This document shows, one piece after another, positions 899 to 34,078 of a DNA stretch of 40,271 nucleotides. Position 1 is the stretch's first letter. Each line of letters starts with the position of its first letter. The DNA comes from Mesotaenium endlicherianum (Eukaryota). Location: the NCBI GenBank assembly GCA_009602735.1, contig WELA01002856.1, positions 252,742 through 293,012 of the forward strand, given 5' to 3'. The position numbers and the translations under genes are program-made. The notes beneath the pieces were generated by a model. That model was given only the letters and a program-made list of their open reading frames with translations. It did not search any database and was not told where the DNA came from.

Positions 899-1084
899 AC
901 TTTTGCCACATGGAGTTCTTCTAGGTCTTTCCTCTAACTTCGAAAATGCCTTGGAAGGTTCAAAGGACATGAACCAAGTTACTAGAGTACCTATTCACAC
1001 TTGACTCCACACAATACTACTCCAAATATATTTGAAAACATTAAAATATATGCGAACTAATATATAATAACTCAAATCACTACA

Positions 1085-2251
1085 CCCAGCCCACCTGCCC
1101 AAGCAGGGGAAGAAGCTGATCTGACTGTACTGGGCAGCAGACACAGGCAGAAATCCCCAGAGGACAAGGGTGCCAGAAGAGGGACACGCGGGTGAGCCCG
1201 AGGTATGCCGGCCTCCCCCTCCGCTCAGGGGCATGTACCTCTAGCCAATGTATTTCAGCATCCTACTAGAATGCCTGTCTATGTGGGGATCAACACCCAA
1301 GTGGTTGAAGAGCAGGCTACCATCCTTCGTTCTCCTCGAGGTCCAACTTTAGAGCAAACAGGGTTCTTTAGAAGGCCAGCTAACAGACCTAGAGGGCTGT
1401 CCAGATCTAGGTCCAGATCTCCGTCCCCTGATCCTGAAGCTCCAGGAACAACCCTTTAAGGTGACAGGCTGAAAAGACAGTCAGTAGGGGGAGGCTGGTC
1501 AGGGTCAGTTCCTTTATTTAAGGCTTTTGCAGTTTAATGTTGTCGAGGCGACAACAAGTTAAGTGAGAGGGATTGTAATGAATCAATGTATTAGTGAATA
1601 TAATATTCATTTAAAGATAATTGTTAATTAAGTTCAGCCTGCTCAACTTTAGTTAATAGTCAGTCTGCTGGACTTTACATAATTATCAGTTTAATGACTT
1701 AGCCGGAAGCAGCAGGCTGAAGTCCATATAAGTCAGCTTGCTGACCCATTCTTTGACAGCCAGCTGACTTCCGTACACGGTAGCAGCGAACTGCCTTGAC
1801 ATACACCTAAGTACGATGTGCTAGATGAATCGCCAGATGACATCCCTATGATAGATGGCTATTCGGGATGATAGGAAATGGCGGTGGATTTGGTTAACCG
1901 AGGTCCTACCAACGTGGTTAACTCCCGGGTAGGCGGTGCCATCGCACTGACCGTTGAACAGTAAACTCATTCCATGTACATATGCTAGGCATTGCTCTCG
2001 AGTTCGGCATTCGGAAACGAGGCCAACTCTCTTTTACAGCTTACTGAGAGATATCTGAATCCAAGGCGAGAAGCCATTGATACGCACTGTCTTCTAACCT
2101 TGCTTATGTATGAGTTTACTGATTTGCATTATTGATGCTAGTTTACTCGCATTTGACTTACGAGTATTATTCACTGCTAGTGTATTGTCCTTTGCCGTTT
2201 AACCAGTTAACGGAAATTGTTAATCGCTTATTTGGTAAGTCGATTCATTTC
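1085..2251 (+). mobile_element. 3' end and 3' LTR (1574-2251) of a probable third LTR retrotransposon
   Basis: Decayed low-complexity ORF remnant to 1459. Then a GTTGTCG...CGACAAC hairpin and purine tract AAGTGAGAGGGA (1561-1572), followed by TGTAATGAATC at 1574. The matching inverted terminus GATTCATTTC is at 2242-2251. No second LTR is present in the window to confirm. Confidence 0.55.
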
Positions 2252-3371
2252 TGTCAGATTCAGAGAAAATCGCCCGTCAGGCTTTCACAAAGTCACAGCT
2301 TACAAAACTCTGAAAGTACACGTCTATGCTGGCCTGGGTCAAGCTCTTCACTTAACACCTCGCCTTAACAGTTCTTTATTGCCAGGCTAGGCTCACTCAG
2401 TTCTTCACTGAGAGCTTTATCTGCCAATACTACCCTCTCTCTTCGAGATGCGAATGCGACTTCTGAGAACTTGGAAACTGACACACAACTCACCAATTTA
2501 AGACTGCTTCACACACACTTGTGATTGTGCTAATCTCCTAGCCGATTCTATTCTGCAGTTCTCCTACTTTCAACAGTGAGATTCCTTCTTGGGAACTCCT
2601 ACAAACCTAACTCATCTATGATACATTGAGAACAATCTTCAGCGTCGGCAGAAGCGTGGGGCCTCGGCTCTCCAATGGCCTTGGGAACTCCTTCTTCTTC
2701 TTTGCGCCCTTCTTCTCCTTCCTTCTGCTCCTTCTGCTCCTTCTGCTTCTTGGCAAAAGTGCGTGAGAGTGAATGACATGTCTCAGGCAAGATTCGTGCC
2801 TTTCGCAGGCACCACACAGCGTCATCTTTCGAGAATTCCGTGCTTAGTCACAAAGCTTAGCTGCATGTCGCTTCTGCCTAGCCTTGCTCAACTCAAGCTC
2901 GTAGTCACTCGGCATGCATGCACACCTCGTGACTGTTGCGCGTGGCTGCTTAGCTTCTCAGCTGGCAATCACGCCTAATTGGCTCATGGCGAAGAACTCC
3001 TGAGCGGCGTGTACAAGCAAATGCCACTTGCTCAAGATTCCCAACCGGGCGGCCGTAACCTATCTTGGCTTGCGGCCATGACCTGGTTTAATCTGCCAGT
3101 CACACAGTACCTGACTTGGTACCTGCTGGACGGCTCATCACTGATCCCCAGCTTCTAGCCTCGCGGTTGTCTATGCTGTCAAAACCTCCCCCATCCCTGG
3201 GTGTGGGGCACATTGACATTGACCCCTTGCCAGTGGTCTTGACGCCGACATAACCGCTGACTGCGACGTAATCAGTCAAGTGGTCGGTGAGTCAACGTTG
3301 ACTTTCCGTACCTGGGTGGCCGTAGCTTGCGCTGCGCGTGCGGCACCGTCAAACGGATAATAGTCGCGACA
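2252..3371 (-). repeat. 3' LTR (shared portion) of the DNMT-Gypsy element
   Basis: TGTCAG...GCGACA, 1120 bp. It aligns with 15874-17004 with roughly 25-30 substitutions and 3 indels counted by eye. It may extend to 3677 (see findings). Confidence 0.9.
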
Positions 3372-3677
3372 GCTGTCGTGCCTAACAGTGTCGGTCCCTC
3401 GGCACGTGCGTAGCCTTCCAGCACGTGTGCCTTCGACCTGGTCGATGTGTCGGTGGCCCTCCTCACGTGTGGGCAAACATGGTCGATCGACCTTCGCACG
3501 TGTGTCGGTGACAAGCCTCACCAAGGTTGACCCATCCCTGGGCTCCTGAACTTGCACCATGCAACCATGACCAACACACAGAGCAATGTTCTCCTTCACT
3601 TAGCTCTCACCATCTGCTCATCCTAAGACTTCGCAAAAAATTTTAAAATTACTTGCTTTGCCTTAATTCCTCTTACA

Positions 3678-3688
3678 CCCCTCCCTTT
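3678..3688 (-). other. Candidate polypurine tract of the DNMT-Gypsy element
   Basis: Minus strand reads AAAGGGAGGGG, overlapping the last base of the integrase-PHD stop codon and immediately followed by TGTAAG. Confidence 0.55.
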
Positions 3689-5000
3689 CAGCTGCTGAGG
3701 CGTCCCTGCCTTTTCTGCTGAAAGCTATTTCCAGCCCTGCGGCTAGGGGTTTTAGGAAGGCAGTCAGGACATACCCATCGTCCTGCCATAATCTCTTCCT
3801 CGCCAATGCAGAAAGTGTGCCAACGGGCACCACACTTATCGCAAGTTACCATTGCTTCCTGATCATCCAGCACTTTGCAGCTGGCACAAGGCGTGGCTGG
3901 CACCAATTCCTCGGGCACAACCCTAATCGTAGGATCAATATTCGGCAAATGGCATAGCGAGCAATTCTGCACGTGGTCTCTCATGGTCTTACCATCAGAA
4001 CCTTCCAGTTCTAACACACCATTGTCAATTGCATGTTTCACGCGTAAGAACACTGCACCTGAACTGGTGTCGATGGTGGTCTTGGTCTGGCGCTTGCGAT
4101 TGACGAAGTCTCCTTCTTGAATGTGCGTCATCTGCAGGCGGTAGCTCCCGTCTCGCGTCCTGGCGTAAACGCTGCGTATCTCTTTTCTGCGCAATTTTTA
4201 GATTGTCCAGCGCAGCCGGCATCATGCGCTCAAATAACGCCTTACGACGTACCATCACCTTTAGCAGTTCATCAGGGCTGTCCAGGTCTTTCACCTGTTC
4301 AATCTCCTGCTTGATGCTGCTGGGCACTACTGGACTTCTGCCAAGCAGTATCTGATATGGCGAGTACTTTGCCAAGGCAGCCTGCTTGCTAAATCTGTAA
4401 CCCATAACCAACCATGGCAGGGCCAGATCCCAATCACGCTTGTCATGCTCAAGCCAAAACTTGCGCAAAGCAGACTTAATGGTTTGCACCATCCTTTCTG
4501 CCAGACCATCTGCTTCCGGATGATCTCTAGACGTAGTGCAATGATCGATGAAGCATCTATCCAAGAGTTTCTGAAATGACCCTTGGAACTCGAACCCTTG
4601 GTCTGTCAGCACTTTTGCTGGAGCTCCATGACGCACAATCACACCATTGAGGAGTGCTTCCGCGGTCCCTAGACTCTCCTTAGCAGCCAGAGGCACGACC
4701 TCTATCCACTTAGAGAAATGCTCAATCATGACCATGATATACTTGTTACCTCGCTTAGACAGCGGTAGCTCACCTGCGAGATCACAGCTCCAGCGGTAGC
4801 CTAGGCCCATGATTGGCAGAGGTTGCAAGTGTGGATGTTGCCTGTAAAACTAGCCTTGACGCGATCACAGCTTTGGCAGGCCTTGATCACATCTTCACAC
4901 TGTTGCTTCATGCCCCTCCACCAGTAAGACAGCTCCAAAAGACTATACGTCTTCTTGACACCATAGTGTCCAGTGTTCTCGTGCATTTCCTGCACAAGAG
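3688..5000 (-). pseudogene. Integrase (HHCC, DDE core) with C-terminal PHD finger, frameshifted near 4830 and 4170
   Basis: HENTGH...CQSC zinc finger. Catalytic triad in WSCDLAG / LTDQG / GLAERMV. The C-terminus CASC-x11-CDKC-x4-HTFC-x12-CPDC is a C4HC3 PHD finger (about 3760-3890). Confidence 0.9.
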
Positions 5001-5329
5001 CTCGTCTCCTGATGGGTTCTGGCACTAACTTCTCCTGACCAATTTCTTCAATTTTGAAGAGGTTGTTGCGTTTCCAGCAAAACCTTTTAGCTCGATGGCT
5101 TACCTGGTCCTTCTCCTTCTCTGATAGCACTTCCAAGTGAGTTCCCGTCTGCAGCCAGTGCATAGTAGCTTGATCTTTCCAGATCTCCAAACTGAACAGG
5201 GGTAGAGGCTCAGCTTCACCTGATGCTACCATTCCAGCCATTTCGGCTAGGCAGGCCACCAACTCTGCTGGGCTGCTCGGATGTTCGTCCTCTCGAGCTC
5301 CTGTTATGTCGTCGGAAGATGGGTCTGGG

Positions 5330-5955
5330 TTCCTGCTGAGTCCATCGGCGTCGTTGTTGAGCACTCCTGCTCTGTGTACCACCGTCACTTGGTACTCTTG
5401 CAGCTTAAGAGCCCAGCGAGCCAACTTACCAGTGAGGTCTCCATTCTTCATCAGCCATAGTAATGGTGAGTGATCCGTGATCAGCGTGAAGGGTCTTCCC
5501 CACAGATACTCTCTGAAGTGTGTGACAGCCCAAACCACTGCCGGCAGCTCTCCTTTGTAGGACGAGTAGTTGCTCTCCGCTCAATTGTCAGAGCGTGAGG
5601 CATAGGCAATGACATACTCCTCTCTAGGACTTGCGGCCTGAGTGAGCACTGCGCCAATTCCTACACGACTCCAGTCAGTGTGCAGATTGAACAGCTTGGA
5701 GTAGTCAGGCGTTCGCAAGATTGGGGCTGTAACCAGTCGCTCCTTAAGCTCGTTCATGGCTTTCTCCTGAGCTTCTGTCCACACAAAAGGCACATCCTTT
5801 TTCAGGAGTTCCGTCAGGGGTTTAGCAATTCTGCTATAATCCTTCACAAACTTACGATAGTATCCGCTTAGCCCTAACAGAGCTTTCAGCTTAGACACAT
5901 TCGCAGGTGCAAGTATCTTGTAAATAGCCTCAGTCTTCTCAGCCTGAGGGGACAT
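5330..5955 (-). pseudogene. RT connection and RNase H domain (in-frame TGA at 5581)
   Basis: LLGLSGYYRKFV, FNLHTDWS..GIGAVLTQ, IAYASR, NYSSYKGE, LITDHSPL, LARWALKLQEY and ADGLSR motifs. Confidence 0.93.
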
Positions 5956-6730
5956 AGCATTTTCCCAATCTCATGTCCTAGGTAAGGCACGTGTGCCTCA
6001 AAGAATCTGTACTTCCCAGGATGCAGCTTCATCTGGAATTTTTCCAGGCGCTGGAACACTTGTTCCAAGTGCTCGAGGTGCTCCTCTATGGACTTGCTGA
6101 ATACTACCACATCGTCAATGTATGGCTTAGCAAAATCCAGCCCCTCCAGCACTTTATCCATAGTCCTCTGAAATATGGCTGGGGCATTTTTCAGCCCAAA
6201 TGGCATTACTGTCCATTGCCAAAGTTCCCTTTGAGCCCAGAAAGCGGGCTTACCTCGATCTTCTGTTTTCACAGGGATTTGGTTGAAGCCTTGGCGCAGA
6301 TCGATGATGCTGAACACCTTCCCGGTGGTGGCAATCGCAAGATCCGCTCCGGCGTAGGCATCACATAGCTGTCTGGCTCCGTGTACAGATTCAGTCGCCT
6401 GTAATCTCCACACATACGAGTGGCAGTGTAATTGCCGGCCTCGTCCTTTTTAGCGACTACTACTGTGGGAGCCCCATGCACTGAGGTAGATTTTCCAATC
6501 ATGCGGAGCTTATGCAGCTCTTCGCTAGTTTTCTCCACACAGTCCCATTCTGTCTGACTAAGCTTATGCGGCCCAAGTCTGACTGGGTTATCAATAATTA
6601 GTGTGAACTCACACACACTGGCAGTGATTCTACCAATCTCCTCCTTAGTAAAAGCAAACACCTTGCGGTGTTTCTTCAGCAACCTTTCTACTTGTGCTCT
6701 CTGCTGGGCTGAGACCATTTTCCCAAATGG
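5956..6730 (-). pseudogene. Reverse transcriptase, frameshifted near 6330 and 5960
   Basis: RMCGDYRRLN, FSIIDLRQGFNQI, VMPFGLKNAPAIFQR, YIDD (6111-6122) and YLGH motifs. Confidence 0.95.
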
Positions 6731-8829
6731 CAAAAGCCTCAGTTTCAGGTTGCTTCTCCCCAACAAAGGCATCCAGTAGTTGCAACTCATTGGGTGCAGG
6801 TGTGGGCTTTTCGCCCTCATCCTGGCCCTCAGGCTTTCTGCCTGATTTTGGCTCTCGAGCTTTTCTGCCTGATTCTTAGGAGGTGGGGTAGCAAGCTTTG
6901 CACCTTGCTCCTCCGTTGCCATAGGCTCTGCAGCCTGCTTCCTAGGCTTTTTACCTTTTCCAATGACGCGTCGCCTCTCCTGCTGTGAGGTGTACGTCAG
7001 GCGCCTCCGGATGGGTTGCCTTAGGAACTTTTCTTCGTCGACTGCAGTCCAACTGGTCCCAGTTCCTCCTTCTTCACGTGGCCGAGGTTGGTTAGCCACT
7101 GGCCAACCTGCAGGACCTGTCCTAGGGCTGATTACCCAGCCCCACTCTCGCTCAATAACAACCATGCGGGCGACGGTCGTGCCATACTCCTCCCTTGCGG
7201 GTGGTGTGACCGTCCATGCCTGCGCCAACGTTTGCGACCTTTGAGATGCCGCTAGTTTTGCGAGGAAAACATCATCCGCTGCGGTCAAGCGGCTCATATC
7301 CATCAGTTCCCATTCTGGGATTGCAGGTGTCATGGGAGCAAGTGCCTCCGGCCTCGACATCCTAAGATCTGATAGTTGCAACAGCGGCGTGTTAATGCCT
7401 GGCGGCACACTAATGTCCAATGCCATTGCCCTGCGAATCAAGCCGTCCTCTCCCTCTCTCTGCAGAATATCCCGCAGAGGAGGAGGAGGTGGGGCTGTGG
7501 TTCCTCGCGGAACGCCCTCTCTCTGAGCCTTCCCCTTATGCTTGAAATATCGCTTTAGCATCCTCCTAAAAGATGCGTTACCCTCACGGGCCACCTTCCT
7601 TGGTCTGCTTGCGCGACCTTGGGCTTACCTTGCGCTGTCTCCACTTTAGCAGTGCAGGCAGTCACCTCCTGCCATTGCGGCGGTCGTGCAGTTGACTTGG
7701 GCACTGCCACTGAAAGACTGGCAGTAGGGGTACTGGATGTTGGTGACCTTAGTTCTTCATAAAGGTCTGCCGGGCTTGGCCCCATCAGGTGGTCAGCTAC
7801 CCAGTCGTCTGTCCTCAACTCCTGCAAGTCAAGCAGATCCAACTCTGGCGTGGGAAAACGTGGAATTTCTTCCCTGGCTTCCCCTCCATTGTTGAGTGAT
7901 GGCAACTCAAACTCTGGGAGGCCTTGCATCTCTGCATCCTCTCCCTCCTCCGGCTTCTCTGTTCCAGGAGGCGGCGGTTCTTCATCCCCTCCTGCTTTGA
8001 GCCTCCCCATGTTGATGATGGCTGACTGTAGAGCGCGAGCTGCTTTCGCCACTTTCTCTTCCTTGAGTCGAGGGGCGTCTGCTTCCAGCAATTGCTCCAT
8101 GATTTGCCTGGTGCTCGACTCAGCTGTGCTGCCAACTGTGTCTTGTAGTTGCCCTTTGGCCTCTGGCGCTGGGCTCATCAGAACAGGTGTGGCGGGCAAT
8201 CTCTCGATTGTCTCCTTCCTGCGTTCTTCAAAGATCACCTCCAGGCAAATGGTCTTTCCAGACCCTCCAGAATTTCCTGAATTCTGACTGCATTCTTCGG
8301 CCCATTCGCCAATATTGCACTGGCGTTCTTCATATCTTGACGTTGCCGCGTCTGGGGATGGGCGACATGGTCTTGGGCCATGTTCCGTAACTCAGAAGTG
8401 GTCTCTTCCTCCCCTTCCGGCATCCTCACAAATATTTTGCTGGAGCGTTCTGCAGATAATGGGATCTCTTGTAATTTGCTTGCTGCAGCGCTCTCCAAAG
8501 GGTTTGCTTCACCAGTTGCCTGGTCTTCCATGGCTACGTCTTCCCGCAGCCTTCGCAGCTCTCTTTCCAGAGGGTCGTGTAGAGCCGTTTTCCAATTGTC
8601 AATACGCGCTAGTAGGTCTTGACACCTGGTCAGCTCCGCCACTCTGGTTTCTCTGAGTGCTTCACCTTGGTCAGCCTCAGCTGCGTCCCTTTCAACACCA
8701 TATTCTTCTTGTCGCTGATGCGCTTCCCTGACAGCTCTCTGATCAGAGGTTGGCACCACATGGACTCCAATCGTTACTGGTCTCGGCCTGGGCATAGGCT
8801 TGTCAGAGAATGTCATTTGCTGCCAAGTC

Positions 8830-9794
8830 ATAATCGTCTCCACCAACCACGTCATGGAGTGATGCCCAATCATGTTGCCGAATATCTTCCCAGCGTCGTC
8901 CTGTCCCACCATCGCAACAATTTCTTGTGCAATGGAGTTGGGTACCCCCAGGCACCTTCCCTTCTCTTCAGCTGTCGGCTCTCTCCACTGAGCTTCTCTG
9001 TTGTGCGCGTTCTTAACCATGTCTGGTCCTCCATTCACGAATGCGCGTGATCCTGGGTATGCCGTGAAGGTGGGCAGCACCACCCTCGGCCGGCCTGGCT
9101 CGTTGACGACGTGCTGTGGGTAGGAATCCCTCCTGATCACTGGCTTGGTTTCCACCATCAGTGCTTCTCCCACAGATGCTGCTGTTGGTGTGCGCCGCGT
9201 AATCTCCTCCATCTCCCTCAGGACTTCAATGGACATGCCGTTGGTCCAGAATAGTCTGGCCCGGTGTGAGACTCCTCCGTGCCTGGCGTCGTTGATCAAT
9301 ACATGATGACCCAGGGTGGAGTCAAAGACCAGCCATGGATCTCCTGGGTTCATCTGGTTGTAATCCATCCCTGGACGTACATTCTCAATCACAAACACTG
9401 GTGGGTAGAGATGCTGGCGTTCCCGCAGCATACTGATGATTTTCACCATCCATCCCCAGTGTTGTGCTCGCAGGTCATTGAATCCCCTCCTGTTCCCAGC
9501 TTGCAAGAAAGGTTGACAAGGGAATCCCGCAAAGATCCAGTCAATCCTGTAATCATACGAGTCCTCAGACTTCACATCGAGAATGTTTCCTCCAGCAAGA
9601 CGCACCAAACTAGAGTCAGTAGGCACCAACGCCTTGAAATGATGCATTTGCCGAATCTGACTCATGATCTCCTTAAATGCTGTGAAAGCACTCTCATCAT
9701 TGTCCACATACAGCACTTTGGATACTTGGATACCTCGCTGAATCTGTGAGATGGTTCCAGAACCAAGTTCGGCGAACAATTCCAGCACTACTAC
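8830..9794 (-). pseudogene. C5 cytosine DNA methyltransferase domain, in frame with the retroelement protease (ORF 8235-10445)
   Basis: Ordered motifs: I VLELFAELG (9762-9794), II LYVDND, III GNILDV, IV AGFPCQPF (catalytic Cys 9516-9518), VI FVIENV (9378-9386), VIII HRARLFWTN, IX RCLGVP, X IFGN. Confidence 0.92.
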
Positions 9795-10149
9795 TCCTCT
9801 CCTGTGAAATGGATCTTCCATCCTCACAATGCCTTGCGGCAGCGGGTCTACTCCAGGCATCGAATTGGCAGCAGACTTAACTGGATAAGGAACTGGCAGG
9901 AGCTCTTGCGGGCCACGGTCCCTCTTACTCACAGTTTCCAGTTGCTCCATAATCCGAGGTTGCCAAACCAAGGGAGTCGGCATGTTGACGCTGGTGTAGC
10001 CCTCCTCTTCGCGTTGCATGATGAGGTCATAATGGTCTGGACACCGGTCATTCACACAACAGTCTAGCAGTCCGTAGTTCGCCTCTTCCCAGCAAACCAT
10101 TTTTACAGGAATTTCTCCTGTCGGCTGCCGATCTGTCGACTGGTAAGTC

Positions 10150-10463
10150 ACCCTCTGCTTCCGCAGGTCGATGACCATACCCAGGGGAATCTGGGCTTCT
10201 GTCCCCAAGAGGACATCATAGTTCTCTGCCTCTGTCACCGTGCATTCTATGAGCAGTGACGCCTCCTCAGGTTTCCCCAAATTTACTGTGATTTTCACAG
10301 GCTTGCGGGTAATTCCACAAGAGTTTGAAATCTGCCCAGATGCAGTCCTCAACTGAAATGGACTTTCTTTCAGGTCCCTTGCCGTCAATCCCAGAGCTTT
10401 CACAGCTCGCTTTCCCAAGATTACTGGCTGTGCGCCAGTGTCCAATAGGATATTGGAAGCGGC
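10150..10463 (-). pseudogene. Retroviral-type aspartic protease
   Basis: ILLDTGAQPVILG active site and downstream YDVLLG flap-side motif, in the same frame as gag and DNMT. Confidence 0.9.
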
Positions 10464-10580
10464 TCAGTCGTTGAACGTCAAAACTCTATCCTTGTTCTGC
10501 ACTCTCACAGTGCTGAAATTAGTAGGCAGCGAAGCGCTGTTCGCGCCTTCCTCAGCTATGTCCAGCTGCTGTCCGGCTTC

Positions 10581-12373
10581 TTAAACCGTGAAAGGGTACG
10601 TAAGACGCAGATCAGCGAGTGAAAGACAAGGAATGTGCTGAATCCGGTGTTCCACCAGAGCCTTCAGCTTCTCCAGCGAAAAACTAAATGTCTTGCGTGG
10701 CCCAGGCTTGGCTTGTCGTAGCTGCGCAATCTCGTTCTCATCGAGAGTGATCCGAAAGGTCTGAGGAAGCTTCCCAGCATTCCTTGGAACCAGACGGTCA
10801 TGATCTGCGCGCTTCGCAGCCGTTGCAGCCACGGCCTTCTCAGGCGTCAGCTTCTCGCCTTTGCAGACGGTCTTTTCGGCCACATCTGCATCATAATAGA
10901 CATTGGGGACATTTAGTTTTGCGAATTGAGCTTTCAACTCTGCAATCTCTGCACTCATAGCATCATACTTCTGGTTACCCTTTCGGTTACCAGAGTTATC
11001 TTTCTCTTTTTTCTTACCCTTATCTCCCTCTTTCGTGGCAGCATTAGCCCATGGTGGCTTCAGATTTGGGTTCTTGGACCAACACTCATCTTCTGAGTGT
11101 CCCTTTTTGCTGCAATGTGCGCATACCTGCGCCTTGCTAGCAGACAATTGCTTAGCATCCGGGTACGGACAATCTCTCTTCTGATGTCCCCATTTCCCGC
11201 AATTCCAACAGCCCTCTGCTGTCTCAGCAGTGTTGGCGTGCTTAGCAAACCTATTGAAAGACCCGCTCTTCTTCTTAAACTGAAAATTAGAGCTATTGGC
11301 CTTAGGCTGAAAGGATTCCTCCTTTCTCTCAGGAGCCATAAGCGTCCTGGAAGCCTCCTTGTACCAGACTTTACCTTCCTCGACATTGCGTGCTATTTCA
11401 GCAGCCTCGTCGATGTTCCAGTCGATTCCGCGTTTCGTAGATAGGTGCGGCCTGACCTCCCGATCTATGTCTTTACCCAAACACAATAAGAATTTGTCAG
11501 CCACAATCCTAGGCTCATAGATTCCCGCCTTCTTGGCAAGGTCTACCAATCTGGATTTGACCTCCATCACTCTCTCGTTCTTCTGACGGACAAAATGCAC
11601 ATAATGGTGCACCTTAAGACTGCGATCCTCTGGGAAATCTGCTTCAAGCAACTTAAAGAAACGACGCTGACAGTGCTCAGAGTCTAACTGGTCATTCCCA
11701 GCCTCCATATCCCTACGGCAACTAGCCAACGCTTGCGCATGGCTTGCTTCCGTGGTGGCACTATCACCATGCTGCCCTGTAAAAGGTGCAGTCCAGCGCG
11801 TTACTCGTTCCTGAGCATTAGCAATCTTTTCAGACAATTCTGCACACACTTTACGCAATTCTGCGACACACCCAGCATCATCATCTCAAGTAGCCGCTCG
11901 CTGTTGACCCTCGATGAGTTGCCTCATGGCATCTGTTAATTCTTGTGTTAGTGCAGCTAAGTCTACGCTCTCAACAGGTGCAGCAGGTTTCGCTCTTCCT
12001 GATAACAAAGCGGACAGGCGGGCTTTCGCAGCCTGTTTCTGGATTTTTAAATTCCTCGCCTTCTTTTGCTCGTCAAACGCCCATTCCTGGGTAAGGTTCT
12101 CATTCTTCCGGAATTGGCGATAAAGCAACAAGGCATCCTTGTCCAAGTACTGAACCAAGCTTATAAAAGCGACTGACTGAGTGTAAGAAGAATCCTTTTG
12201 GATTCTCTCAAAGAAATCAGCCCAATAGATCTCATCAAACTCTTCGAAAGTGAGACTATTTCCACCTGTTCGTCCACTAAAACACTTTGTAGACAGCTCA
12301 AACTTAGGATTTTCATCCTTATCATCACCAGTCATTTCGAATGGTGACTAAGACTCACTAACTTTACCCCACA
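10581..12373 (-). pseudogene. gag: Gag (main part) with two CCHC zinc knuckles
   Basis: ORFs 11886-12335 and 10581-11858 share one frame separated by a TGA. FVRQKNERVMEV major-homology-like region. Knuckles CWNCGKWGHQKRDC and CAHCSKKGHSEDEC. Confidence 0.88.
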
Positions 12374-12876
12374 TGTAGTGATTTGAGTTATTACATATTA
12401 GTTTGCATATATTTTAATGTTTTCAAATATATTTGGAGTAGTATTGTGTGGAGTCAAGTGTGAATAGGTACTCTAGTAACTTGGTTCATGTCCTTTGAAC
12501 CTTCCAAGGCATTTTTGAAGTTTGAGGAAAGACCTAGAAGAACTCCATGTGGCAAAAGTCAAATGTGCCATTTTTAGGTCAAAAGGACATGTGTACATTA
12601 TTCTAGAAAGAGGTGGCAAGTTTTGGGATGTGTTGGGTGCCAACACATCAACATACACCTTCCTAGAAATTACTTATGTAGCAAGTATATAAACAAGAGC
12701 TAGAACATAGAAAGACATTCCAGAATCACTCTTGTACTTGCCAAAATCCAGAAATATATTAACTTTCAAGAAGCCATCTCTCTTTCAAGAAGCTACCACT
12801 TGTGTTCAAAGATCCTTGTCTTGAATAGATAAAGTATTCTGTTTTACTAAGTACTTTATCTATCTGTTTCACTACA
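12374..12876 (+). repeat. 5' LTR of nested chromovirus
   Basis: TGTAGTG...CACTACA with 7-bp inverted termini, TATATAAA at 12686-12693, and 6 substitutions versus the 3' LTR counted by eye. Confidence 0.97.
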
Positions 12877-12877
12877 G

Positions 12878-12889
12878 TGGTATCGGAGC
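12878..12889 (+). promoter_or_regulatory. Primer binding site, initiator tRNA-Met type
   Basis: TGGTATCGGAGC one base after the 5' LTR, with one mismatch to the canonical plant TGGTATCAGAGC. Confidence 0.88.
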
Positions 12890-13150
12890 TAGGCACTTTG
12901 GTAGCACAAGAAGATGGCCGATCCTCAAGACCAACAGCAAGCTTTCGAAGGAAGCCCTTCCTCTCCAAGACACCCTCCTCCAGCGCCGATGGGAGAGCCC
13001 ACTCAAGAAAATCTGCAAAACAAGAAGCACCACAAGGAGGAGCACCGTCAAATCCGGTGGCAGCCGCTATAGCAAAGTTAACCCCACCACAAGGAGTTCT
13101 CGCAAATGAGTGGGCAGCCTTCCTAATGACCGTCCACAACCAAGTGGGCN

Positions 13151-14120
13151 TGGCCATTTCTAGAAAAATCTCTTTAAGAACTTGGGTACATCGCTGGATA
13201 TGTCCACTGCCTACCACCCGCAATCAGATGGGCAAACCGAGCGTATGAATCGTACTCTAAAGACCTCTTTAAAGGCCTACGTGTCTACCCTCGAGCAAGA
13301 CTGGGACATGTACTTGACCCCCCTCGAGTTTGCCTACAACAACACTACGCAGGCCTCTACCCAAGAGTCCCCATTCTTCCTCAACTATGGCTTCCATCCG
13401 ACCACGCCACTGAGCTTCACGGCTGGCCTTGATGAAGTACCTGCAGCCACAGATTTTATGGAGACATTAGAAGCAGCCCTTACAGCAGCGAAGAAAGCTC
13501 TACAACACGCGCAAGATGCTCAAGCAAGAGTGGCGAACAGATCCAGAAGAGAAATTACGTACAAAGCGGGTGACAACGTGTCACTATCATCCAAGAATAT
13601 TTCCGTGAACAACAGGCCTGCCGGCAGCAAGTTCTCTCCCAAGTATTTGGGACCCTTCAAGATTATCCAGCAAGTCAACCCCGTTGCTTTCAAGCTAGAA
13701 CTTCCCCAGACTATGCACATCGACCCCGTATTCCACGCTTCCCTCTTCAAGCCATATGTGCAACCCGACAACAAGTTCCCAGGACGTGTGACAACCCCAC
13801 CAGCCCCAACAATAGTGGATGATCATTTGGAGTACGAAGTGGAAGACATAGTGGCTATGAGAAATTTCAGGAGACAGCAGCAATACTTGATCAAGTGGAA
13901 AGGATATCCAGATTCGGAGAATAGTTGGGTGGCGGCGCACTACCTTGACAAAGTTCAGAGAAAGTTGAAGCGCTTCCATGCCGCCAACCCCCATCTTGGA
14001 CCAGCCCCAAGTCTCTCTACTAGAAGCCCGAAGACTTCAGGGAGGCAGCCTGCCACCATCAAGAAGCAGCAGAAGACCCCTTGGAGGCAGCCTGCAAGAA
14101 CAAGAAAGAGGAAAAATTGA
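13151..14120 (+). pseudogene. Integrase C-terminal half with GPY/F motif and chromodomain
   Basis: STAYHPQSDGQTERMN, EFAYN, SPFFLNYG, KYLGPFKI, PVFHASL. Chromodomain YEVEDIV...YLIKWKGYPDSENSW. One in-frame TAG just after the n. Confidence 0.93.
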
Positions 14121-14745
14121 CATTAGACACTCTTCTCTTCTCGCAGTTTCTGGACAGAAAACTAAAACTGCTACTGGTAATAGGTCTCTGCATAATAAAT
14201 TCTGAAAATTTACCTGGCTGTAGTCCATGAGTAGCCGGTCATTTAGAGTCCAAGTTTGCTCAATTTGGAGCACTGGTGAGAGAGATATGATGCTCTAAGT
14301 AGAAGGGGGTCAGGCTGCTGGCATTGTTAGGGCAGAATATGCCTTCTGACATTGTGCCCTCCCCTGAACTTGGAATGCTCTGAAACTCAAGACTCTGGTA
14401 GAACATCTTACAGCGCCCAGTTTGAGACTTAGTTTGCAGAATTTGGAGAAGTATAGAAGGACTTATGATTTTCAGAAGTTTCTGCACAGATTTGGAGGAG
14501 TGCCTACTCTCTCAGCTCTCAACGACACTCCAGAAATGAGAATGCTCTCAAATTTGGTGACCCGGTAGAGTTCTCCGACGCGGTCCGTCTGGCACTCGAA
14601 TTTTCAGATTTGGAGCAGTTCTGTGGCCGCTATGAATTTTTGAGTTCGTGGCAGATTCTGGGCCAACTTGTACAATTTTCTTTATCATTAAGGAGTAGGC
14701 TAGCCAATAAGGTCACACCACCTACGACCTTGCCTAGTCTACCTT

Positions 14746-14856
14746 ACATGTGTAGCACCTGACTTGGCGCCTTTGACTAGTCCTCTTCACATGTGTGGCA
14801 TCTGACTTGAAACTGTTGACTAGTTTGCTCCACATGTGTAAGACCTGACTTGACGC
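14746..14856 (+). repeat. About 2.6 tandem copies of a 43-bp unit in the chromovirus 3' UTR
   Basis: ACATGTGT....CTGACTTG......TTGACTAGT units start at 14746, 14789 and 14832. Confidence 0.85.
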
Positions 14857-14879
14857 GCCGAGACGTCGCTTTTTCTATC

Positions 14880-14889
14880 GGGGGGGTGA
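14880..14889 (+). other. Polypurine tract of nested chromovirus
   Basis: GGGGGGGTGA immediately before the TG of the 3' LTR. Confidence 0.85.
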
Positions 14890-15392
14890 TGTAGTGATTT
14901 GAGTTATTATATATTAGTTTGCATATATTTTAATGTTTTCAAATATATTTGGAGTAGTATTGTGTGGAGTCAAGTGTGAATAGGTACTCTAGTAACTTGG
15001 TTCATGTCCTTTGAACCTTCCAAGGCATTTTCGAAGTTAGAGGAAAGACCTAGAAGAACTCCATGTGGCAAAAGTCAAATGTGCCATTTTTAGGTCAAAA
15101 GGACATGTGTACATTATTCTAGAAAGAGGTGGCAAGTTTTGGGATGTGTTGGGTGCCAACACATCAACATACACCTTCCTAGAAATTACTTATGTAGCAA
15201 GTATATAAACAAGAGCTAGAACATAGAAAGAGATTCCAGAATCACTCTTGTACTTGCCAAAATCCAGAAATATATTAACTTTCAAGAAGCCATCTCTCTT
15301 TCAAGAAGCTACCACTTGTGTTCAAAGATCCTTGTCTTGAATAGATAAACTATTCTATTTTACTAAGTACTTTATCTATCTGTTTCACTACA
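14890..15392 (+). repeat. 3' LTR of nested chromovirus
   Basis: 503-bp near-identical copy of 12374-12876, followed by TSD CCACA. Confidence 0.97.
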
Positions 15393-15639
15393 CCACACGT
15401 CGTGCTCTCTGCCCAAATTGGGTACAAAGGCTTGCGCGTTATACGGATTCTCACCGTTTGTGGCAGTATGGCGAGACTCGTCTCTCGACGGTTGCTCACT
15501 CCACAGGTTATCCGTGCGCTCAGATGTCTCACTTCCTCGTGGACTTTGACTTGAATCAGAACCTTCCGNGACTTTGACTTGAATCAGAACCTTTCGCAGG
15601 ATCCACAGTTTAGTAGAGTCTTCCACTCCTCAACCGCAT
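15393..15639 (-). pseudogene. gag: N-terminal piece of the DNMT-Gypsy gag, split off by the nested insertion
   Basis: Starts MRLRSGR (ATG 15639), an LRSG-type Gag N-terminus. After removing the insertion and one TSD it reads ...REHDVWGKVSES*SPFEMTGDD in frame with ORF 11886-12335. Confidence 0.7.
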
Positions 15640-15873
15640 GTACGGTTGAATTTCTCCGGGGCCCCTTCCAGGTTGAGCACCGGCAGCCCTCACAGGCCTC
15701 AATCCCCAATTTGCTTGGGAATTTCTCTTCACCTGAACCACGGAACCGAAGTTTTCAGAAGTAGGACGGAAGTCTCTTACTTCCACATAGGCTTTATGTC
15801 TTGAGGTTCTTGGGTTCACAGGCGAGCAAATTGTAGTTTGCAGAAATCACACTCTAAGCAGCTTGACATATAA

Positions 15874-17004
15874 CGTCAGATTCAGAGAAAATTGCCCTTC
15901 AGGCTTTCGCTTAACTTTCACAAAGTCACAGCTTACAAAACTCTGAAACTACACGTCTATGCTGGCCTGGGTCAAGCTCTTCACTTAACACCGCGCCTTA
16001 ACAGTTCTTTACTGCCAGGCTAGGCTCACTCAGTTCTTCACTGAGAGCTTTATCTGCCAATACTACCCTCTCTCTTCGAGATGCGAATGCGACTTCTGAG
16101 AACTTGGAAACTAACACACAACTCACCAATTTAAGGCTGCTTCACACACACTTGTGGCTGTGCTAATCTCCTAGCCAATTCTATTCTGCAGTTCTCCTAC
16201 TTTCAACAGTGAGATTCCCTCTTGGGAACTCCTACAATCCTAACTTATCTATGATACATTGAGAAGAATCTTCAGCGTCGGCAGAAGCGTGGGGCCTCGG
16301 CTCTCCAATGGCCTTGGGAACTCCTTCTTCTTCTTTGCGCCCTTCTTCTCCTTCCTTCTGCTCCTTCTGCTCCTTCTGCTTCTTGGCAAAAGTGCGTGAG
16401 AGTGAATAACATGTCTCAGGCAAGATTCGTGCCTTTTGCAGGCACCACACAGCGTCATCTTCGAGAATGCCGTGCTTAGTCACAAAGCTTAGCTGCATGT
16501 CGCTTCTGCCTAGCCATGCTCAACTCAAGCTCGTAGTCACTCGGCATGCATGCACACCTCGTGACTGTCGCGTGTGGCTGCTTAGCTTCTCAGCTGGCAA
16601 TCACGCCTAATTGGCTCATGGCTAAGAACTCCTGAGCGGCGTGTACAAGCAAATGCCACTTGCTCAAGATTCCCAACCGGGCGGCCGTAACCTATCTTGG
16701 CATTGCGGCCATGACCTGGCTTAATCTGCCAGTCACACAGTACCTGACTTGGTACCTGCTGGGCGGCTCATCACTGATCCCCAGCTTCTAGCCTCGCGGC
16801 TGTCTATGCTGTCAAAACCTCCCCCATCCCTGGGTGTGGGGCACATTGACATTGACCCCTTGCCAGTGGTCTTGACGCCGACATAACCGCTGACTGCGAC
16901 GTAATCAGTCAAGTGGTCGGTGAGTCAACGTTGACTTTCCGTACCTGGATGGCCGTAGCTTGCGCTGCGCGTGCGGCACCGTCAAACGGATAGTAGTCGC
17001 GACA
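15874..17004 (-). repeat. 5' LTR of the DNMT-Gypsy element
   Basis: 1131-bp direct repeat of 2252-3371, with 11 extra bp near 15909 and first base C instead of T. Confidence 0.9.
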
Positions 17005-17553
17005 TAAATCACGTCGCGCCTAAAGACCACTGTAAACAACTCTTTTATCGCGCTCAAATTGAAAATGTACCTGCAGGTACCTTTTAGTACTTTTCAATAA
17101 ATCAAGTCGCTATCGATGTGCCGACTGTAAACCGGGCCTAAACAAGTGAGAACAAGATTCTGAAAATGATCGAAAAGACGGCACTGGAGGTACCAGGATG
17201 TACTCGCGCTTCGCAAGTTTGCGAGGGGCCTGTACAATCATGTTCACATTTGAATGGCACCTTCTACCTGCTTCTACCCAACGTGAGACTCACGCACCGT
17301 CCGATACATGAGGTCCCGCGCGGGCTGCAGTACAATCTACTTGCCTTTTGAAGGCACGTGGAAACATCGTGTAAATATTTACGACGAATCGTTTTTTGTT
17401 CTTCAATTGCTCCTCAAGTTGCTACTTAGCTTCGTGGTGTATTCTGCTCACATCACTCACCCAGCATGCAATGAGTGTCCGCACTCTACGATACAAGCTT
17501 CTCTTTGCAGACAGACGTAAGATGGGCACATTAGCATACTGCTGAGAGAGCGG

Positions 17554-19854
17554 ATGGCTGAAGTTTCTCGTGGGAATCCCATGTCTGTGGTTAATAGAGC
17601 GGTAGCCCTTGCACCGGAACATGTTGAGGCTTCCGCAGTTGTAAATGCTCCATTTATCCGTAACGATGCATATGGTCACATGGGAGCTGGTCGTCTCAAT
17701 TTCAGGGAGAAAATTTCATTGTGTCTGGCATCAGTGGCTTTGTTACCAATTCGACTTGTTATCATTCTACTGTCTATCCTATCATTTTACTTCATCTGCT
17801 GCATAGCAACTCTCTGCCTGAAGCCCAGGGGAGACTATAGGCTGAGCGGATTGAGGTTAAGAATTGTCATGACTTCTGGCCGTTATCTTGCTCGCGTGGT
17901 AATGCTACTCTACCTTCTGATTATCTCTGTAACTGGTTTCGTGGAAGGGCAAGTGGCACGTTGAGGCGGTCACCTTACTTATAAGCTTAAAACCTGACGC
18001 CGCAGCCGCTCTCTCTACCAGGTGCTCTTTGCGTTGGGATTTCACTATATTAAAGAGGAAACCCTGCTGGCAGACGCAAGAGTGCAGCTGAGCCCTGGCT
18101 CTGAAGGACTGGTAAGCTTTACTATTTCATATGGATTTATGGTGCAAGAGGTGACTTCTGTCGAGGGATGCCAAAGGGGCTGTGCCCATTCCTTTCTGCG
18201 GACGTGCACGTTGCTGACTTCAGCACTGCCACTGCTCAACCATCTGCAGAGAAGGGCTGTGAGTGCAAAAGTGGTTGCTTGCGCGAGCAGGCTCACAGGA
18301 AGCAAGGGAATGGGACCGATGATGCCACCTGTGTAGTTTCCAACCACGTGTCTTGGGTGGACATCCTGTACCACGTGTACGCTCATCCTAGAGGCCTTCC
18401 TGCGTTTGCAGCAAAGGTACACTCATGGCACCTGGTGGAAGTGCGCGTAAGGCATGCTGCTCCTGGAAGGCGAGGCGGAGTCTCAATGTTGCTGCTCTCT
18501 TTCTGTGTGTATGGGGTTGGGGAGGGGGGGGACAGAGCTCGCTGGCAGCGGTTCCCGTGATTGGATTCCTGAGGTACTAGTGCTACTTTGAGCTTGGCAG
18601 AGTCTCCTCATTTCGCGTGCTCTGGAGCGTCGATAACGCCCGCTGGATGTGTCACTGCTTGTGGCGGGGCTGCAGCAACTGCCTGAGCTGCATGTATGTT
18701 GATCGTGAATTCAAGCCGGCCGGAGGGGGAGGAGTTGCAGGTCAGTAGGTCAGCAGGGGCCCTGCTTGCTCAGCTGCCCCTCCCGCACTCTCGCTGGGCC
18801 AGGTTGGCGCGGAGCATGAAAGCCTGCTGATGGGATGGAAGGGAAGGAGGGAGGCAGGCATAGTGAAGGAGCGCATGCAGGCGGCACAGCAGCAGCCGGG
18901 CAACTCCCCATTGCCCCTGCTCTTTCCTGGTGAGTGGGTGGGTGGGTGGGTGTGGCTGTGCTGTGCACAAGTGCGGTGTGTGGTGGGCAGAGGATGGACG
19001 GCGCACCTGACAGCCGGGCCTGGCCTGGGGGTGAGAGGGGTGCAGAGGGGACAACCACAAATGGGCGCTACCTGCTGCCATTCAAGACAGGCGCGTTCTT
19101 GGCCGGCACGCCCGTGCTACCCGTGCTGTTGCACTACCGCCCCTCCAAGCTCAGTCCGGCCTGGGAGAGCATCAGTGGGGTATGTGGCGTGCATGCTGCT
19201 CACTCACGCCCTGCTGTCACGTTATTTTTTAACTTGAATGAAAATGGATGTGCTGAGGAAAGCATCTTATCTTCGTTGCTGCAGGGCCGACACGTGTTTC
19301 TGATGCTCTGCCAGCTGTCGCACCGCCTTGAAGTGCTCCGCCTTCCAGTGTACTACCCAAGTGCAAGAGAAAGACAGGATCCCAAACTGTTTGCCTTGAA
19401 CGTGCGGCAGCTCATGGCTGACTCGGTGAGTGCGTGGCGCCCTTCTCTCCATCATGTGTCACCGTCCTTCTCAAGTCTGCTGGAGGTGAGCCAGAGATGT
19501 CAGACGTGTGATGCTCGAACAGGTTTTCCCTGCGCTTACGGACGGCCACTAATGGGTGAGGGGAATGGGAGCTAGAGGCCCTCATGTGCATGCAGGCTTG
19601 CAAGCAGGTGCCAGAGACGTCCTTTTAGGACATTAATATGTATGCTGCTATCAGTTGCTAGAATCTGCTGGGTCTCATACAAATTTTGCGTGCAGCTCAG
19701 CAGGTCTACGGTCTAGGCTGCACGCTTGCAACGCAGTTCGTCACACTCTTGCTGTTGTTGGCAGGGGGTTTTGCCACTATCAAGCTCAACTTTGGTGGAG
19801 AAGAGAGCGTACCATGCCGTCCTTCGCTCTTCCTCTTTGACCAAGGCTGAGTGA
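17554..19854 (+). CDS. LPEAT: Lysophospholipid acyltransferase, LPEAT-like (9 exons)
   Basis: Exons 17554-17898, 18022-18111, 18291-18416, 18536-18573, 18676-18740, 18858-18929, 19046-19179, 19285-19425 and 19765-19854 splice in frame via GT-AG. Motifs SNHVSWVD (HxxxxD), YVDRE, LFPEGTTTNG, FKTGAF, SPAWESIS and EKRAYH. Confidence 0.88.
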
Positions 19855-20999
19855 TCCTTGGGATAATGAGTATGGAGTAATAATGTGCGCTGCATATGTC
19901 CTAGACTTGTGTGTTCCCAATAAGTTGATGTTGCTGCCTTGCTTCCTCCACTCCATGAATGACAAGTGATTATCCTGTTTCATCTTCTGTGTGTCCCTTG
20001 GAGCGGAAAGTAGCATCGCGTCTTGAAAGTGGTGGACAGCTATTTATTGGCTTAGAACAGTGCAGCTCCATGCCGCTTTCATGTGCCGGTTCCTGTTGAG
20101 TGGTCTAAGTTGGTCCCTCTTTTCTTCTCTGATCAGGTGACAATGAAATACAATTGGAATGGTGTAGGAAGCCTCATTTCACTTGCAGGGAATAGGGCGG
20201 AGCGTGCAGCATTTTTGACTCTTTCGTGTGTAAAGACTGGCTGCATATTTCTCATTGCGTCGACCATCTGAAAGTCACACTAAGTGTTCACCCTGGATAT
20301 CAACTTAATTTGGCATAATCTTCCTCAAAGCCTTTAGCAGGCTGTTGATTTGACATGTTTGGCACTTGTTTGCGCTGTCGGCAATAAGTTTCTGATGTAG
20401 TCAGTGGTGTTGTGGCTGCAGTCTAAATACTTATTTTTGCTCGAATTGGTTCATTTGGAAAAGGTGTGAAATCCGTGACTGTTTGCAGTGAGTGGTGTTC
20501 TTCTAATTGCTACGAGATACAAGTTGAGTAATATTTTCGAACACTTCTATGGAGGAAGGTCAAAGCGACAATATGCATATTTTTACCGTGCATTAGTTGG
20601 TTCAGTAAAGAAAGCTGACACGGATGAGTCTTGAAACAGCCCGGATTCATTATGATGGTTTTCCAAGGCAGATCGAGCTTTATATTGACGCGTCTCGATT
20701 TGTCCATGTTAAATTTTCTCCGTCGCATTCCCAACAGGAGGTAGTATAATGATGATTCAAGGCCATTAAGTGTGGCTTCAATAAAAAGAGGCTGCCATAT
20801 TTGATTTGGACACTTTGAGAACACAAGTGAAATGCTGTTTGTACAACACACCAAAGTAGTCTAAGAGGGATCAGCTTGTGACATACGGTTCGTGAATAGG
20901 GCTGCTAGAAGGAAGTCTTGCCACTAGAATTCGGTCTAAAATTGAAGAAAGGCTACCCCACCTTAGCCTGGATATAAAATGCATACGCCTGTGCCACTT

Positions 21000-29660: not shown

Positions 29661-29739
<79 letters not shown>

Positions 29740-34031: not shown

Positions 34032-34078
<47 letters not shown>

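What the first reader, a model, noticed from the sequence alone, without database searches (positions are those of the whole stretch)
8235..10463. Gypsy retrotransposon with a complete C5 DNA methyltransferase fused between protease and RT
Seen: the protease (LLDTGA) continues without a frame break into the core C5-MTase motifs (I-IV, VI, VIII-X) in canonical order, including the PCQ catalytic Cys, ENV and RxR, all inside the LTRs. Known: DNMT-carrying retrotransposons were reported in dinoflagellates and charophytes (de Mendoza et al. 2018), so the class is described but rare. Inference: the enzyme is released from the polyprotein in the particle and methylates nascent cDNA or the insertion site. 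Motif VIII (HRARLFWTN) resembles DNMT3/DRM-type enzymes. This family and host may be undescribed.
Basis: partly seen in the sequence, partly recalled or inferred. Interest (0 to 1): 0.9.

Follow-up and report, generated by a model that had tools for sequence, protein, structure and literature searches.

The report
Algal retrotransposon carrying a DNMT3-like methyltransferase
This is a broken copy of a multi-copy jumping gene in a green alga close to land plants whose polyprotein contains a DNMT3-like DNA methyltransferase, a kind already described in another alga; intact copies likely methylate their own newly made DNA and likely insert it after cutting a short palindrome that distant algal relatives share.

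Summary
A C5 cytosine methyltransferase (PF00145; motifs I-X in order; DNMT3-type by profile and fold) follows the protease in frame in a gag-PR-DNMT-RT-RH-IN-PHD Gypsy-like element. The host is the zygnematophyte alga Mesotaenium (neighbouring exon 100% identical to a Mesen1 protein). It is a new member of a described kind, KnitGypsy-Dnmt3: protease and DNMT align collinearly with a Klebsormidium nitens protein. Corrections: this copy is dead (stops, frameshifts, lesions in DNMT motifs I and IV), nearly silent in three RNA runs, and about 680 codons separate DNMT from RT. The repeats are not ordinary LTRs: no primer site, and the ends meet inside the element at a palindrome, GACAGCTGTC (A-coding-B-A, likely followed by B). 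New here: 158 protein clusters carry this DNMT, most with the domain between RNase H and integrase, one from a chlorophyte, and 15 of 32 distant metagenome loci (11 lineages) keep the same palindrome. Integration from a circle cut there, and methylation of the element's own cDNA, are inferred, not shown. This scan noted DNMT-bearing and permuted-end Gypsy elements before on other DNA (mosses).

The parts
15763..17004 (-). Repeat A, 5' copy; element starts TGTCGCG at 17004 against unrelated flank
   Evidence: Self-alignment with 2253-3371; inner end taken from the joint 3677/15763 in three runs
12374..15392 (+). Nested, internally deleted chromovirus-like LTR element (504-bp LTRs, tRNA-type PBS, PPT, 5-bp TSD, chromodomain); not part of the DNMT element
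   Evidence: LTRs 498 of 504 identical; Chromo and SH3_Tf2-1; empty site in 4 of 4 runs
10467..12347 (-). gag, in pieces 11886-12347 and 10581-11885 separated by stops, same frame as protease-DNMT; zinc knuckle near 11166-11213
   Evidence: sister contigs read other letters at the stops 10581-3 and 10464-6
10197..10454 (-). Aspartic protease (LLDTGA)
   Evidence: PF13975, PF13650; collinear with K. nitens protein P0013
8829..9797 (-). DNMT3-type C5 cytosine methyltransferase domain, motifs I-X; catalytic Cys, Glu and two Arg kept, motifs I and IV damaged in this copy
6760..8828 (-). About 680-codon E/A/P/R-rich linker between DNMT and RT, two frame breaks, no family match
   Evidence: relatives have 41-119 aa here
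5967..6760 (-). Reverse transcriptase, frame breaks near 6338 and 5961
   Evidence: PF00078 E=1e-28; indels in sister contigs
5392..5781 (-). RNase H, stop at 5581-5583
   Evidence: PF17917, PF17919
4200..5010 (-). DDE integrase with H2C2 zinc finger, frame break near 4850
   Evidence: PF17921, PF00665
3760..3888 (-). PHD finger at the end of pol
   Evidence: PF00628 E=8e-7; nearest solved: MLL3, WSTF, KDM5 and BAZ2 PHD fingers
3678..3689 (-). Polypurine tract directly before the TG that starts repeat B
3374..3677 (-). Repeat B (304 bp, TG...CA), one copy in the window
   Evidence: joints at 3677 and termini at 3374 in sister contigs
3367..3378 (.). B|A junction: palindrome CGACAGCTGTCG (B end CA, 2-nt spacer GC, A start TG)
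   Evidence: core GACAGCTGTC in 15 of 32 distant loci
2253..3371 (-). Repeat A, second copy, cut 112 bp short by the end of another LTR family at 2251
   Evidence: K2P 0.024 to the 5' copy; loose ends at 2251

Best explanation
This is a dead, nearly silent copy of a multi-copy Mesotaenium Gypsy-like retrotransposon of the KnitGypsy-Dnmt3 kind, whose pol carries a DNMT3-type cytosine methyltransferase after the protease and a PHD finger after the integrase; intact copies likely package the enzyme with RT and integrase and likely use it to methylate their own new cDNA de novo. Shown: domain order, DNMT3 affinity, decay of this copy, regular presence of the domain in sisters, purifying selection in relatives, repeat layout A-coding-PPT-B-GC-A. 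Inferred: (a) the protease frees the DNMT, since relatives carry it at two different places in pol; (b) it methylates the cDNA, probably at CG, so that a new copy arrives marked like host DNA (about 0.45); (c) B+A is the LTR made by reverse transcription, the two ends of the cDNA join (A|B joint), and the DDE integrase cuts the circle at the conserved B|A palindrome, giving A-coding-B-A-B (about 0.5); (d) the PHD finger steers insertion to chromatin with unmethylated H3K4 (about 0.4).
For: PF00145 and motif order. Profile of 66 family members hits DNMT3A E=1.6e-23, DRM 1.6e-14, HhaI 1.8e-10, no DNMT1 or CMT row; fold DNMT3B Z 25.3. Collinear protease-DNMT alignment with K. nitens GAQ93235.1, 28% over 581 columns, E=2e-45. 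Host exon 100% identical to a Mesen1 protein, next best 86%. Sister contigs cover the DNMT in 4 of 4 runs, at depth similar to RT and gag, with no listed joint that skips it. Catalytic Cys 126, Glu 127, Arg 127 and 125 of 127 relatives; DNMT dN/dS 0.013-0.225 in 14 related pairs. P0014, P0154 and P0161 hold gag-PR-DNMT-RT-RH-IN in one ORF. PPT before B, no PBS after A; A|B joint in three runs and termini at 3374; palindrome in 15 of 32 loci against 0.13 expected. SymbioDIRS-Dnmt3 domains methylate CG in yeast (PMC5890265); foamy virus integrase cuts a palindromic circle junction (PMC1180852 abstract).
Against: No activity is shown for this clade: KnitGypsy-Dnmt3 gave no methylation in yeast (PMC5890265). 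CpG observed/expected in the element (0.54-0.65 in pol domains) is no lower than in host genes (0.62-0.64), and the 18 transitions between the A copies are not concentrated at CG (5 of 106 CG, 4 of 122 CHG, 9 of 345 CHH sites). Single-sequence phmmer found HaeIII, HhaI and DNMT2 but no DNMT3 chain at E<=10. In the fold search M.MpeI (Z 23.3) is close behind DNMT3. The terminal B is absent from the window and no TSD can be read; the A|B joint rests on short sides (24-30 nt) and could come from deleted derivatives. 17 of 32 loci lack the palindrome, two of them with tails over 3 kb. The 14 dN/dS pairs are not independent and come from the other architecture.
Confidence: 0.6

Rival explanations
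1. The DNMT acts on the target, not the cDNA: it stays with integrase and PHD and methylates the insertion site or the new copy after integration, damping its expression and sparing the host.
For: In 82 of the 150 best relatives the DNMT lies after RNase H and/or before integrase, often with a C-terminal PHD; the PHD resembles fingers of KDM5, BAZ2 and AIRE type, recalled as readers of unmethylated H3K4 like the ADD domain of DNMT3; the element is nearly silent.
Against: In the window's subgroup the domain lies far from integrase, before RT; silence of an old copy is expected from host silencing alone.
Confidence: 0.25
2. The DNMT marks the conserved junction palindrome, for example to shield one of the two identical B|A junctions from the integrase or to license cleavage.
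For: The junction contains CG at a fixed place in 10 of 11 lineages and in the window; a circle with two identical junctions must be cut once only (inference).
Against: Earlier notes of this scan describe permuted ends in moss elements without mention of a DNMT (unchecked); no asymmetry between the two junctions was observed.
Confidence: 0.1
3. The repeats are an ordinary LTR pair altered by rearrangement near the telomere; the A|B joints are deleted derivatives, and the DNMT is a retained passenger with a non-catalytic or RNA-directed role.
For: The left end is cut by another element and no TSD is seen; 74 of 127 relatives have Glu instead of Pro before the catalytic Cys; the yeast test was negative.
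Against: PPT sits before B, not before A; the element's start coincides with the palindrome in the window and in L010; the same layout is reported for K. nitens; all catalytic residues are near-invariant.
Confidence: 0.1

Closest known systems
KnitGypsy-Dnmt3 of Klebsormidium nitens (de Mendoza et al. 2018, PMC5890265; I read the abstract, three of seven parts of the main text, the Fig. 4 legend, Supplementary Data 1 and passages of the review file; not the figure or the supplementary figures)
   Same: Intronless Dnmt3-like domain, unrearranged, in pol of a Gypsy element of a charophyte alga; repeats arranged as in DIRS elements; protease-DNMT order and homology shown with GAQ93235.1.
   Different: Host is a zygnematophyte; only 28% identity; about 680-codon DNMT-RT linker; a PHD finger, the PPT before B and the junction palindrome are not mentioned in the text I searched ('PHD' 0 hits in main text and held supplements). 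The paper reads it as an acquisition in the K. nitens lineage; the relatives found here point to an older origin.
SymbioDIRS-Dnmt3 (same paper)
   Same: Dnmt3-type domain in pol, A-coding-B-A-B repeats, de novo CG activity shown in yeast.
   Different: Tyrosine recombinase instead of protease and DDE integrase; dinoflagellate host; unrelated RT.
EpiLTRs and DAM-LTRs (bioRxiv 10.64898/2026.05.21.726589; part 1 of 5 and passages; supplements closed)
   Same: Gypsy-like elements carrying DNA methyltransferases and a chromatin reader in algae.
   Different: Their DNMT is sister to DNMT4 and comes with DAM and a chromodomain; the paper lists streptophyte 'Gypsy-DNMT3' as a separate acquisition.
Gypsy-7a_cRei of Chlamydomonas (PMC9940879; passages)
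   Same: 15.4-kb Gypsy element with PHD finger in Gag-Pol and LTR 'subparts'; naturally active.
   Different: No DNMT named in the legend; kinship with this element was not tested (no sequence at hand).
Prototype foamy virus 2-LTR circle junction (PMC1180852; abstract only)
   Same: A DDE integrase cleaving a conserved palindrome on circular cDNA.
   Different: There the cut site is the LTR-LTR junction and the provirus has normal LTRs; here the site lies inside the LTR-like unit and one copy is kept in the inserted element.
Troyka (PMC12440569; parts 1-3 of 5)
   Same: Gypsy-like domain order with unusual termini.
   Different: Animals only, CG...CG LTRs, 3-bp TSD; not this element.

Membership tests
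C5 cytosine MTase (PF00145) | Motifs I-X in order with catalytic Cys, ENV and RxR; class I MTase fold | tested here: met
C5 cytosine MTase (PF00145) | Intact SAM-binding motif I and motif IV in this copy | tested here: not met
   Departures at ORF residues 232 and 320; private to this copy
C5 cytosine MTase (PF00145) | Methyl transfer to cytosine in DNA | not testable with these tools
   Needs an assay
DNMT3 group | Catalytic domain closer to DNMT3 than to DRM, DNMT1/CMT, DNMT2 or bacterial enzymes | tested here: met
   Profile and fold searches rank DNMT3 first; single-sequence search did not; no tree with host DNMT3 sequences was built
DRM | Circularly rearranged motif order | tested here: not met
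   Order is I to X
KnitGypsy-Dnmt3 kind | Intronless Dnmt3-like domain in the pol of a Gypsy element | tested here: met
KnitGypsy-Dnmt3 kind | DNMT in the same ORF as RT and RNase H | tested here: inconclusive
   Broken in this copy; one of two breaks shown to be private; single ORF in relatives P0014, P0154, P0161
KnitGypsy-Dnmt3 kind | Repeats A-coding-B-A-B | tested here: inconclusive
   A-coding-B-A in the window; terminal B missing; A|B joint and B-end termini in sister contigs
KnitGypsy-Dnmt3 kind | Grouping with the Klebsormidium-type (protease-DNMT) elements | tested here: met
   RT tree: window plus 4 such rows on one side, SH-aLRT 95, 45 rows; IN tree: plus 3 such rows, 99, 63 rows (some rows are near-copies, and the K. 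nitens protein itself lacks RT and IN); DNMT tree places it among them on a long branch
Canonical Ty3/Gypsy LTR retrotransposon | Order gag-PR-RT-RH-IN | tested here: met
Canonical Ty3/Gypsy LTR retrotransposon | PBS after the 5' LTR and PPT directly before the 3' LTR | tested here: not met
   No TGG-type PBS at the inner end of A; PPT lies 306 bp before the second A
Canonical Ty3/Gypsy LTR retrotransposon | 4-6 bp TSD | tested here: inconclusive
   3' end missing from the window
DIRS/Ngaro/PAT | Tyrosine recombinase | tested here: not met
   DDE integrase and protease instead; no recombinase hit in the 12 ORFs scanned
Troyka | CG...CG termini, animal host | tested here: not met
   TG...CA termini, algal host

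The most novel reading that the evidence does not exclude
The element belongs to an ancient lineage of PHD-bearing Gypsy-like elements, spread across streptophyte and chlorophyte algae, that captured a DNMT3 enzyme once, later moved it within pol, and integrates in a way unlike any textbook LTR element: the cDNA circularises and the DDE integrase opens it at a 10-bp palindrome conserved across the green lineage, delivering a pre-methylated copy to H3K4-unmethylated chromatin.
Probability: 0.3. Interest if true: 0.8.

Novelty: new member of a known kind. Interest (0 to 1): 0.5.

Why it matters
Why retrotransposons keep a cytosine methyltransferase is an open question, and the Gypsy case rested on one alga with a negative yeast assay. 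This finding adds Mesotaenium, a laboratory model close to land plants, and shows at least 158 divergent protein clusters with the domain in two positions of pol, so the capture looks old and widespread and offers many natural intact domains to assay. The conserved junction palindrome gives a concrete substrate for testing whether a DDE integrase inserts these elements from a circle, which would explain the DIRS-like repeats that the 2018 paper noted without explanation. The copy in this window is itself a dead relic.

Tried and rejected
No genome is held for this window, so copies were studied through sequencing-run contigs only. Word-based protein searches with the DNMT found nothing, nor did the first metagenome scan; the full HMMER search did. 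Phage tblastn gave only weak C5-MTase hits of 23-28%; PHROGs and NCBIfam gave generic methylase models; viral contig scans gave 8 weak hits and then none, so a recent phage or viral donor has no support. A land-plant host (my first guess) was rejected. Troyka was rejected. No RNA holder was listed by the index. No self-priming complement longer than 8 nt was found at the end of A and no tRNA gene lies in the window. No CpG footprint. 5' termini of L072/L074 could not be fixed because they are the same copy. The ESM Atlas did not complete, and the REM1 paper is not held. Literature searches for this family in Mesotaenium, for chlorophyte Gypsy-DNMT3 elements and for Gypsy elements with split repeats returned only the papers cited; subscription journals, Repbase reports and theses are not covered, and the main supplementary file of PMC5890265 was too large to read and may bear on domain order and repeat detail.
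Full report
What is there. The finding lies in a 14.7-kb minus-strand retroelement (2253-17004) interrupted by a younger 3-kb chromovirus-like element (12374-15392; LTRs 498 of 504 identical, 5-bp TSD; empty site in 4 of 4 runs). Pfam on the 12 ORF pieces scanned gives gag with a zinc knuckle, protease, C5-MTase (PF00145, E=1.7e-12), RT, RNase H, integrase and a PHD finger in that order. Protease and MTase share the ORF 8235-10463; motifs I to X follow in canonical order.

Host. An exon of the neighbouring aldo-keto reductase gene is 100% identical over 73 aa to a protein labelled jgi/Mesen1; the next best is 86%. That Mesen1 stands for Mesotaenium endlicherianum, a zygnematophyte alga, is recalled. 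A contig of run X1 matches the window's host DNA at 17052-20100 without a difference, so organism A is the window's species or strain group.

Type of enzyme. The single sequence hit only HaeIII, HhaI, DNMT2 and other weak rows in the PDB. A profile of the window domain and 65 relatives ranks 29 DNMT3A/B/C sequences first (best E=1.6e-23), then DRM (1.6e-14), then HhaI (1.8e-10). The model (mean pLDDT 85.3) matches DNMT3B best by Foldseek and by VIA-align (Z 25.3; DNMT3A 24.2; M.MpeI 23.3; HhaI 21.0; DNMT1 19.1). No tree with host DNMT3 sequences was possible.

State of this copy. It has stops in gag, before the protease and in RNase H, and frame breaks in the linker, RT and integrase. Among 127 aligned relatives (23 of 150 dropped as shorter than 290 aa) the catalytic Cys, Glu and two Arg are near-invariant and kept here, but this copy departs at the motif I glycine, the motif IV serine and three further conserved columns. 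Sister contigs read other letters at two of the stops and at three of these columns and carry indels at 5961, 6338, 6834 and 7620, so the damage is private to this copy. The break at 8235-8391 is not among the rows shown (4 rows hidden), so DNMT-RT continuity in sisters is inferred from relatives that hold gag-PR-DNMT-RT-RH-IN in one ORF (P0014, P0154, P0161). The two A copies differ by K2P 0.024.

Family and expression. Contigs of four runs under four organism labels cover the DNMT. In X1 the summed depth over the DNMT bins is 20,000-24,000 against 54 for host DNA; the tool warns that this is no copy number, but it points to tens or hundreds of copies. No listed joint skips the domain (15 of 419 and 15 of 249 joints shown). 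In three poly(A) RNA runs (6-12% of each read) depth over 4038-12367 is 0-1 against 6.5-32 for the adjacent acyltransferase-like gene: the family is nearly silent in those samples.

Relatives. The full HMMER search gave 471 clusters at E<=0.001 and 158 at E<=1e-10, the best at 29-34% identity. Of the best 150, 15 show the DNMT after gag/protease or before RT as in the window, 82 show it after RT/RNase H or before integrase, and 53 show the DNMT alone. Of 30 representatives looked up, the ones with species names are Klebsormidium nitens (1) and Closterium (5) for the first layout and Scenedesmus (1) for the second; the rest are metagenomic and unnamed, one member carrying a bacterial MAG label. 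The window's protease-DNMT aligns collinearly with K. nitens GAQ93235.1 (28% over 581 columns, E=2e-45). RT and integrase trees put the window with the protease-DNMT group (SH-aLRT 95 and 99; few rows, some near-copies); the DNMT tree gathers all 78 rows of the second layout in one weakly supported group (0.51) and leaves the window on a long branch among the others. One capture followed by relocation is the simplest reading; two captures are not excluded. In 14 pairs of related loci (of 41 loci compared; pairs not independent) DNMT dN/dS is 0.013-0.225. The window's 680-codon DNMT-RT linker has no counterpart: relatives have 41-119 aa.

Repeats. The 1.1-kb direct repeats are not normal LTRs. 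No PBS follows the 5' copy, and the PPT lies before a separate 304-bp unit B that starts TG and ends CA; then come GC and the second copy of A, starting TG. Sister contigs join the inner end of A (15763 or 15766) to the start of B in three runs (sides only 24-30 nt) and end at 3374 beside other elements in X1. This fits A-coding-B-A-B, the layout stated for K. nitens in the Fig. 4 legend of PMC5890265; the terminal B is absent here because another LTR family cuts the second A at 2251. The B|A junction is the palindrome CGACAGCTGTCG. I took this pattern from the window and looked in 67 metagenome loci fetched with relatives of the second layout. Of 32 with a PHD, 15 hold GACAGCTGTC, once each, 406-3201 nt after the PHD and nowhere else; a Markov control gives 0.13 on average. 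They fall into 11 lineages, median 43% identity. Of the 17 without it, L011 and L019 end before the site of near-identical loci, and L022 and L041 lack it despite tails over 3 kb. After the site the sequence runs towards a long first ORF in several contigs, and in L010 the post-site sequence recurs upstream behind an unrelated flank, as at 17004 in the window. So the site marks the element's ends.

How it likely works. Reverse transcription primed at the PPT makes B+A the LTR-like unit. If the cDNA ends join and the integrase cuts one B|A palindrome after CA on each strand, the inserted copy is A-coding-B-A-B. Foamy virus integrase cutting a palindromic circle junction is the precedent (PMC1180852, abstract). 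The DNMT, translated with gag and pol, would be present where cDNA is made; its two positions in pol suggest a separately processed module. De novo CG methylation is shown for SymbioDIRS-Dnmt3 but was not seen for KnitGypsy-Dnmt3, and the window shows no CpG footprint. The PHD finger lacks the tryptophan two residues before the histidine (Arg here, Gly in 38 of 43 relatives matched) and is nearest to MLL3, WSTF, KDM5 and BAZ2 fingers; that this points to unmethylated H3K4 is recalled knowledge.

Novelty. The kind is known since 2018 and named Gypsy-DNMT3 of streptophytes in a 2026 preprint. My searches found no report for Mesotaenium, for the RNase H-DNMT-integrase layout or for the palindrome, within a library that lacks many journals. 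This scan has noted a DNMT-bearing moss element and permuted-end Gypsy elements before (unchecked notes, not support). Verdict: new member of a known kind, dead copy, with a real lead on breadth and on the integration route.

Noticed in passing
window 12374-15392: The nested chromovirus-like family gives abundant antisense poly(A) RNA with two GT-AG introns (13437-13941 and 14090-14213) in 3 of 3 RNA runs; it may be a spliced antisense transcript of the family or of one domesticated copy.
   Followed up: no
window 17011-17024: Eight bases outside the element's 5' end the flank carries an 11 of 12 match to the end of repeat B; target preference or a remnant of a related end.
   Followed up: partly
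window 6760-8828: About 680 codons of E/A/P/R-rich linker between DNMT and RT, with no Pfam, PHROGs or NCBIfam match and lower sister coverage.
   Followed up: partly
L010:1975-9320: A unit that starts at the A terminus and has one 1,800-codon ORF with DNMT, integrase and PHD but no RT or RNase H hit: possibly an RT-less, DNMT-bearing derivative.
   Followed up: partly
L057:3743-9601: After the junction a 1,500-codon ORF runs almost directly into the PHD region with no RT hit: deleted derivative or collapsed assembly.
   Followed up: no
P0001-P0150, motif IV: 74 of 127 relatives have Glu-Cys instead of the canonical Pro-Cys at the catalytic site.
   Followed up: no
L072, L074: Decayed, AT-rich (38-40% GC) elements with the protease-DNMT layout in metagenome contigs; host unknown.
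   Followed up: partly
P0292: A fragment of one DNMT-Gypsy cluster is labelled as a Betaproteobacteria MAG protein, probably algal DNA binned into a bacterial genome.
   Followed up: no
window 17500-34400 and 40190-40271: Host genes: acyltransferase-like (17.5-19.8 kb), aldo-keto reductase (20.9-23.3 kb, minus), CPSF_A-domain gene (27-34 kb, minus) in GC-rich, microsatellite-rich DNA; TTTAGGG telomere repeats end the window.
   Followed up: partly
window 899-2251: A partial inverted LTR of the chromovirus-like family and the end of a third LTR family abut the element: a nest of three families.
   Followed up: partly
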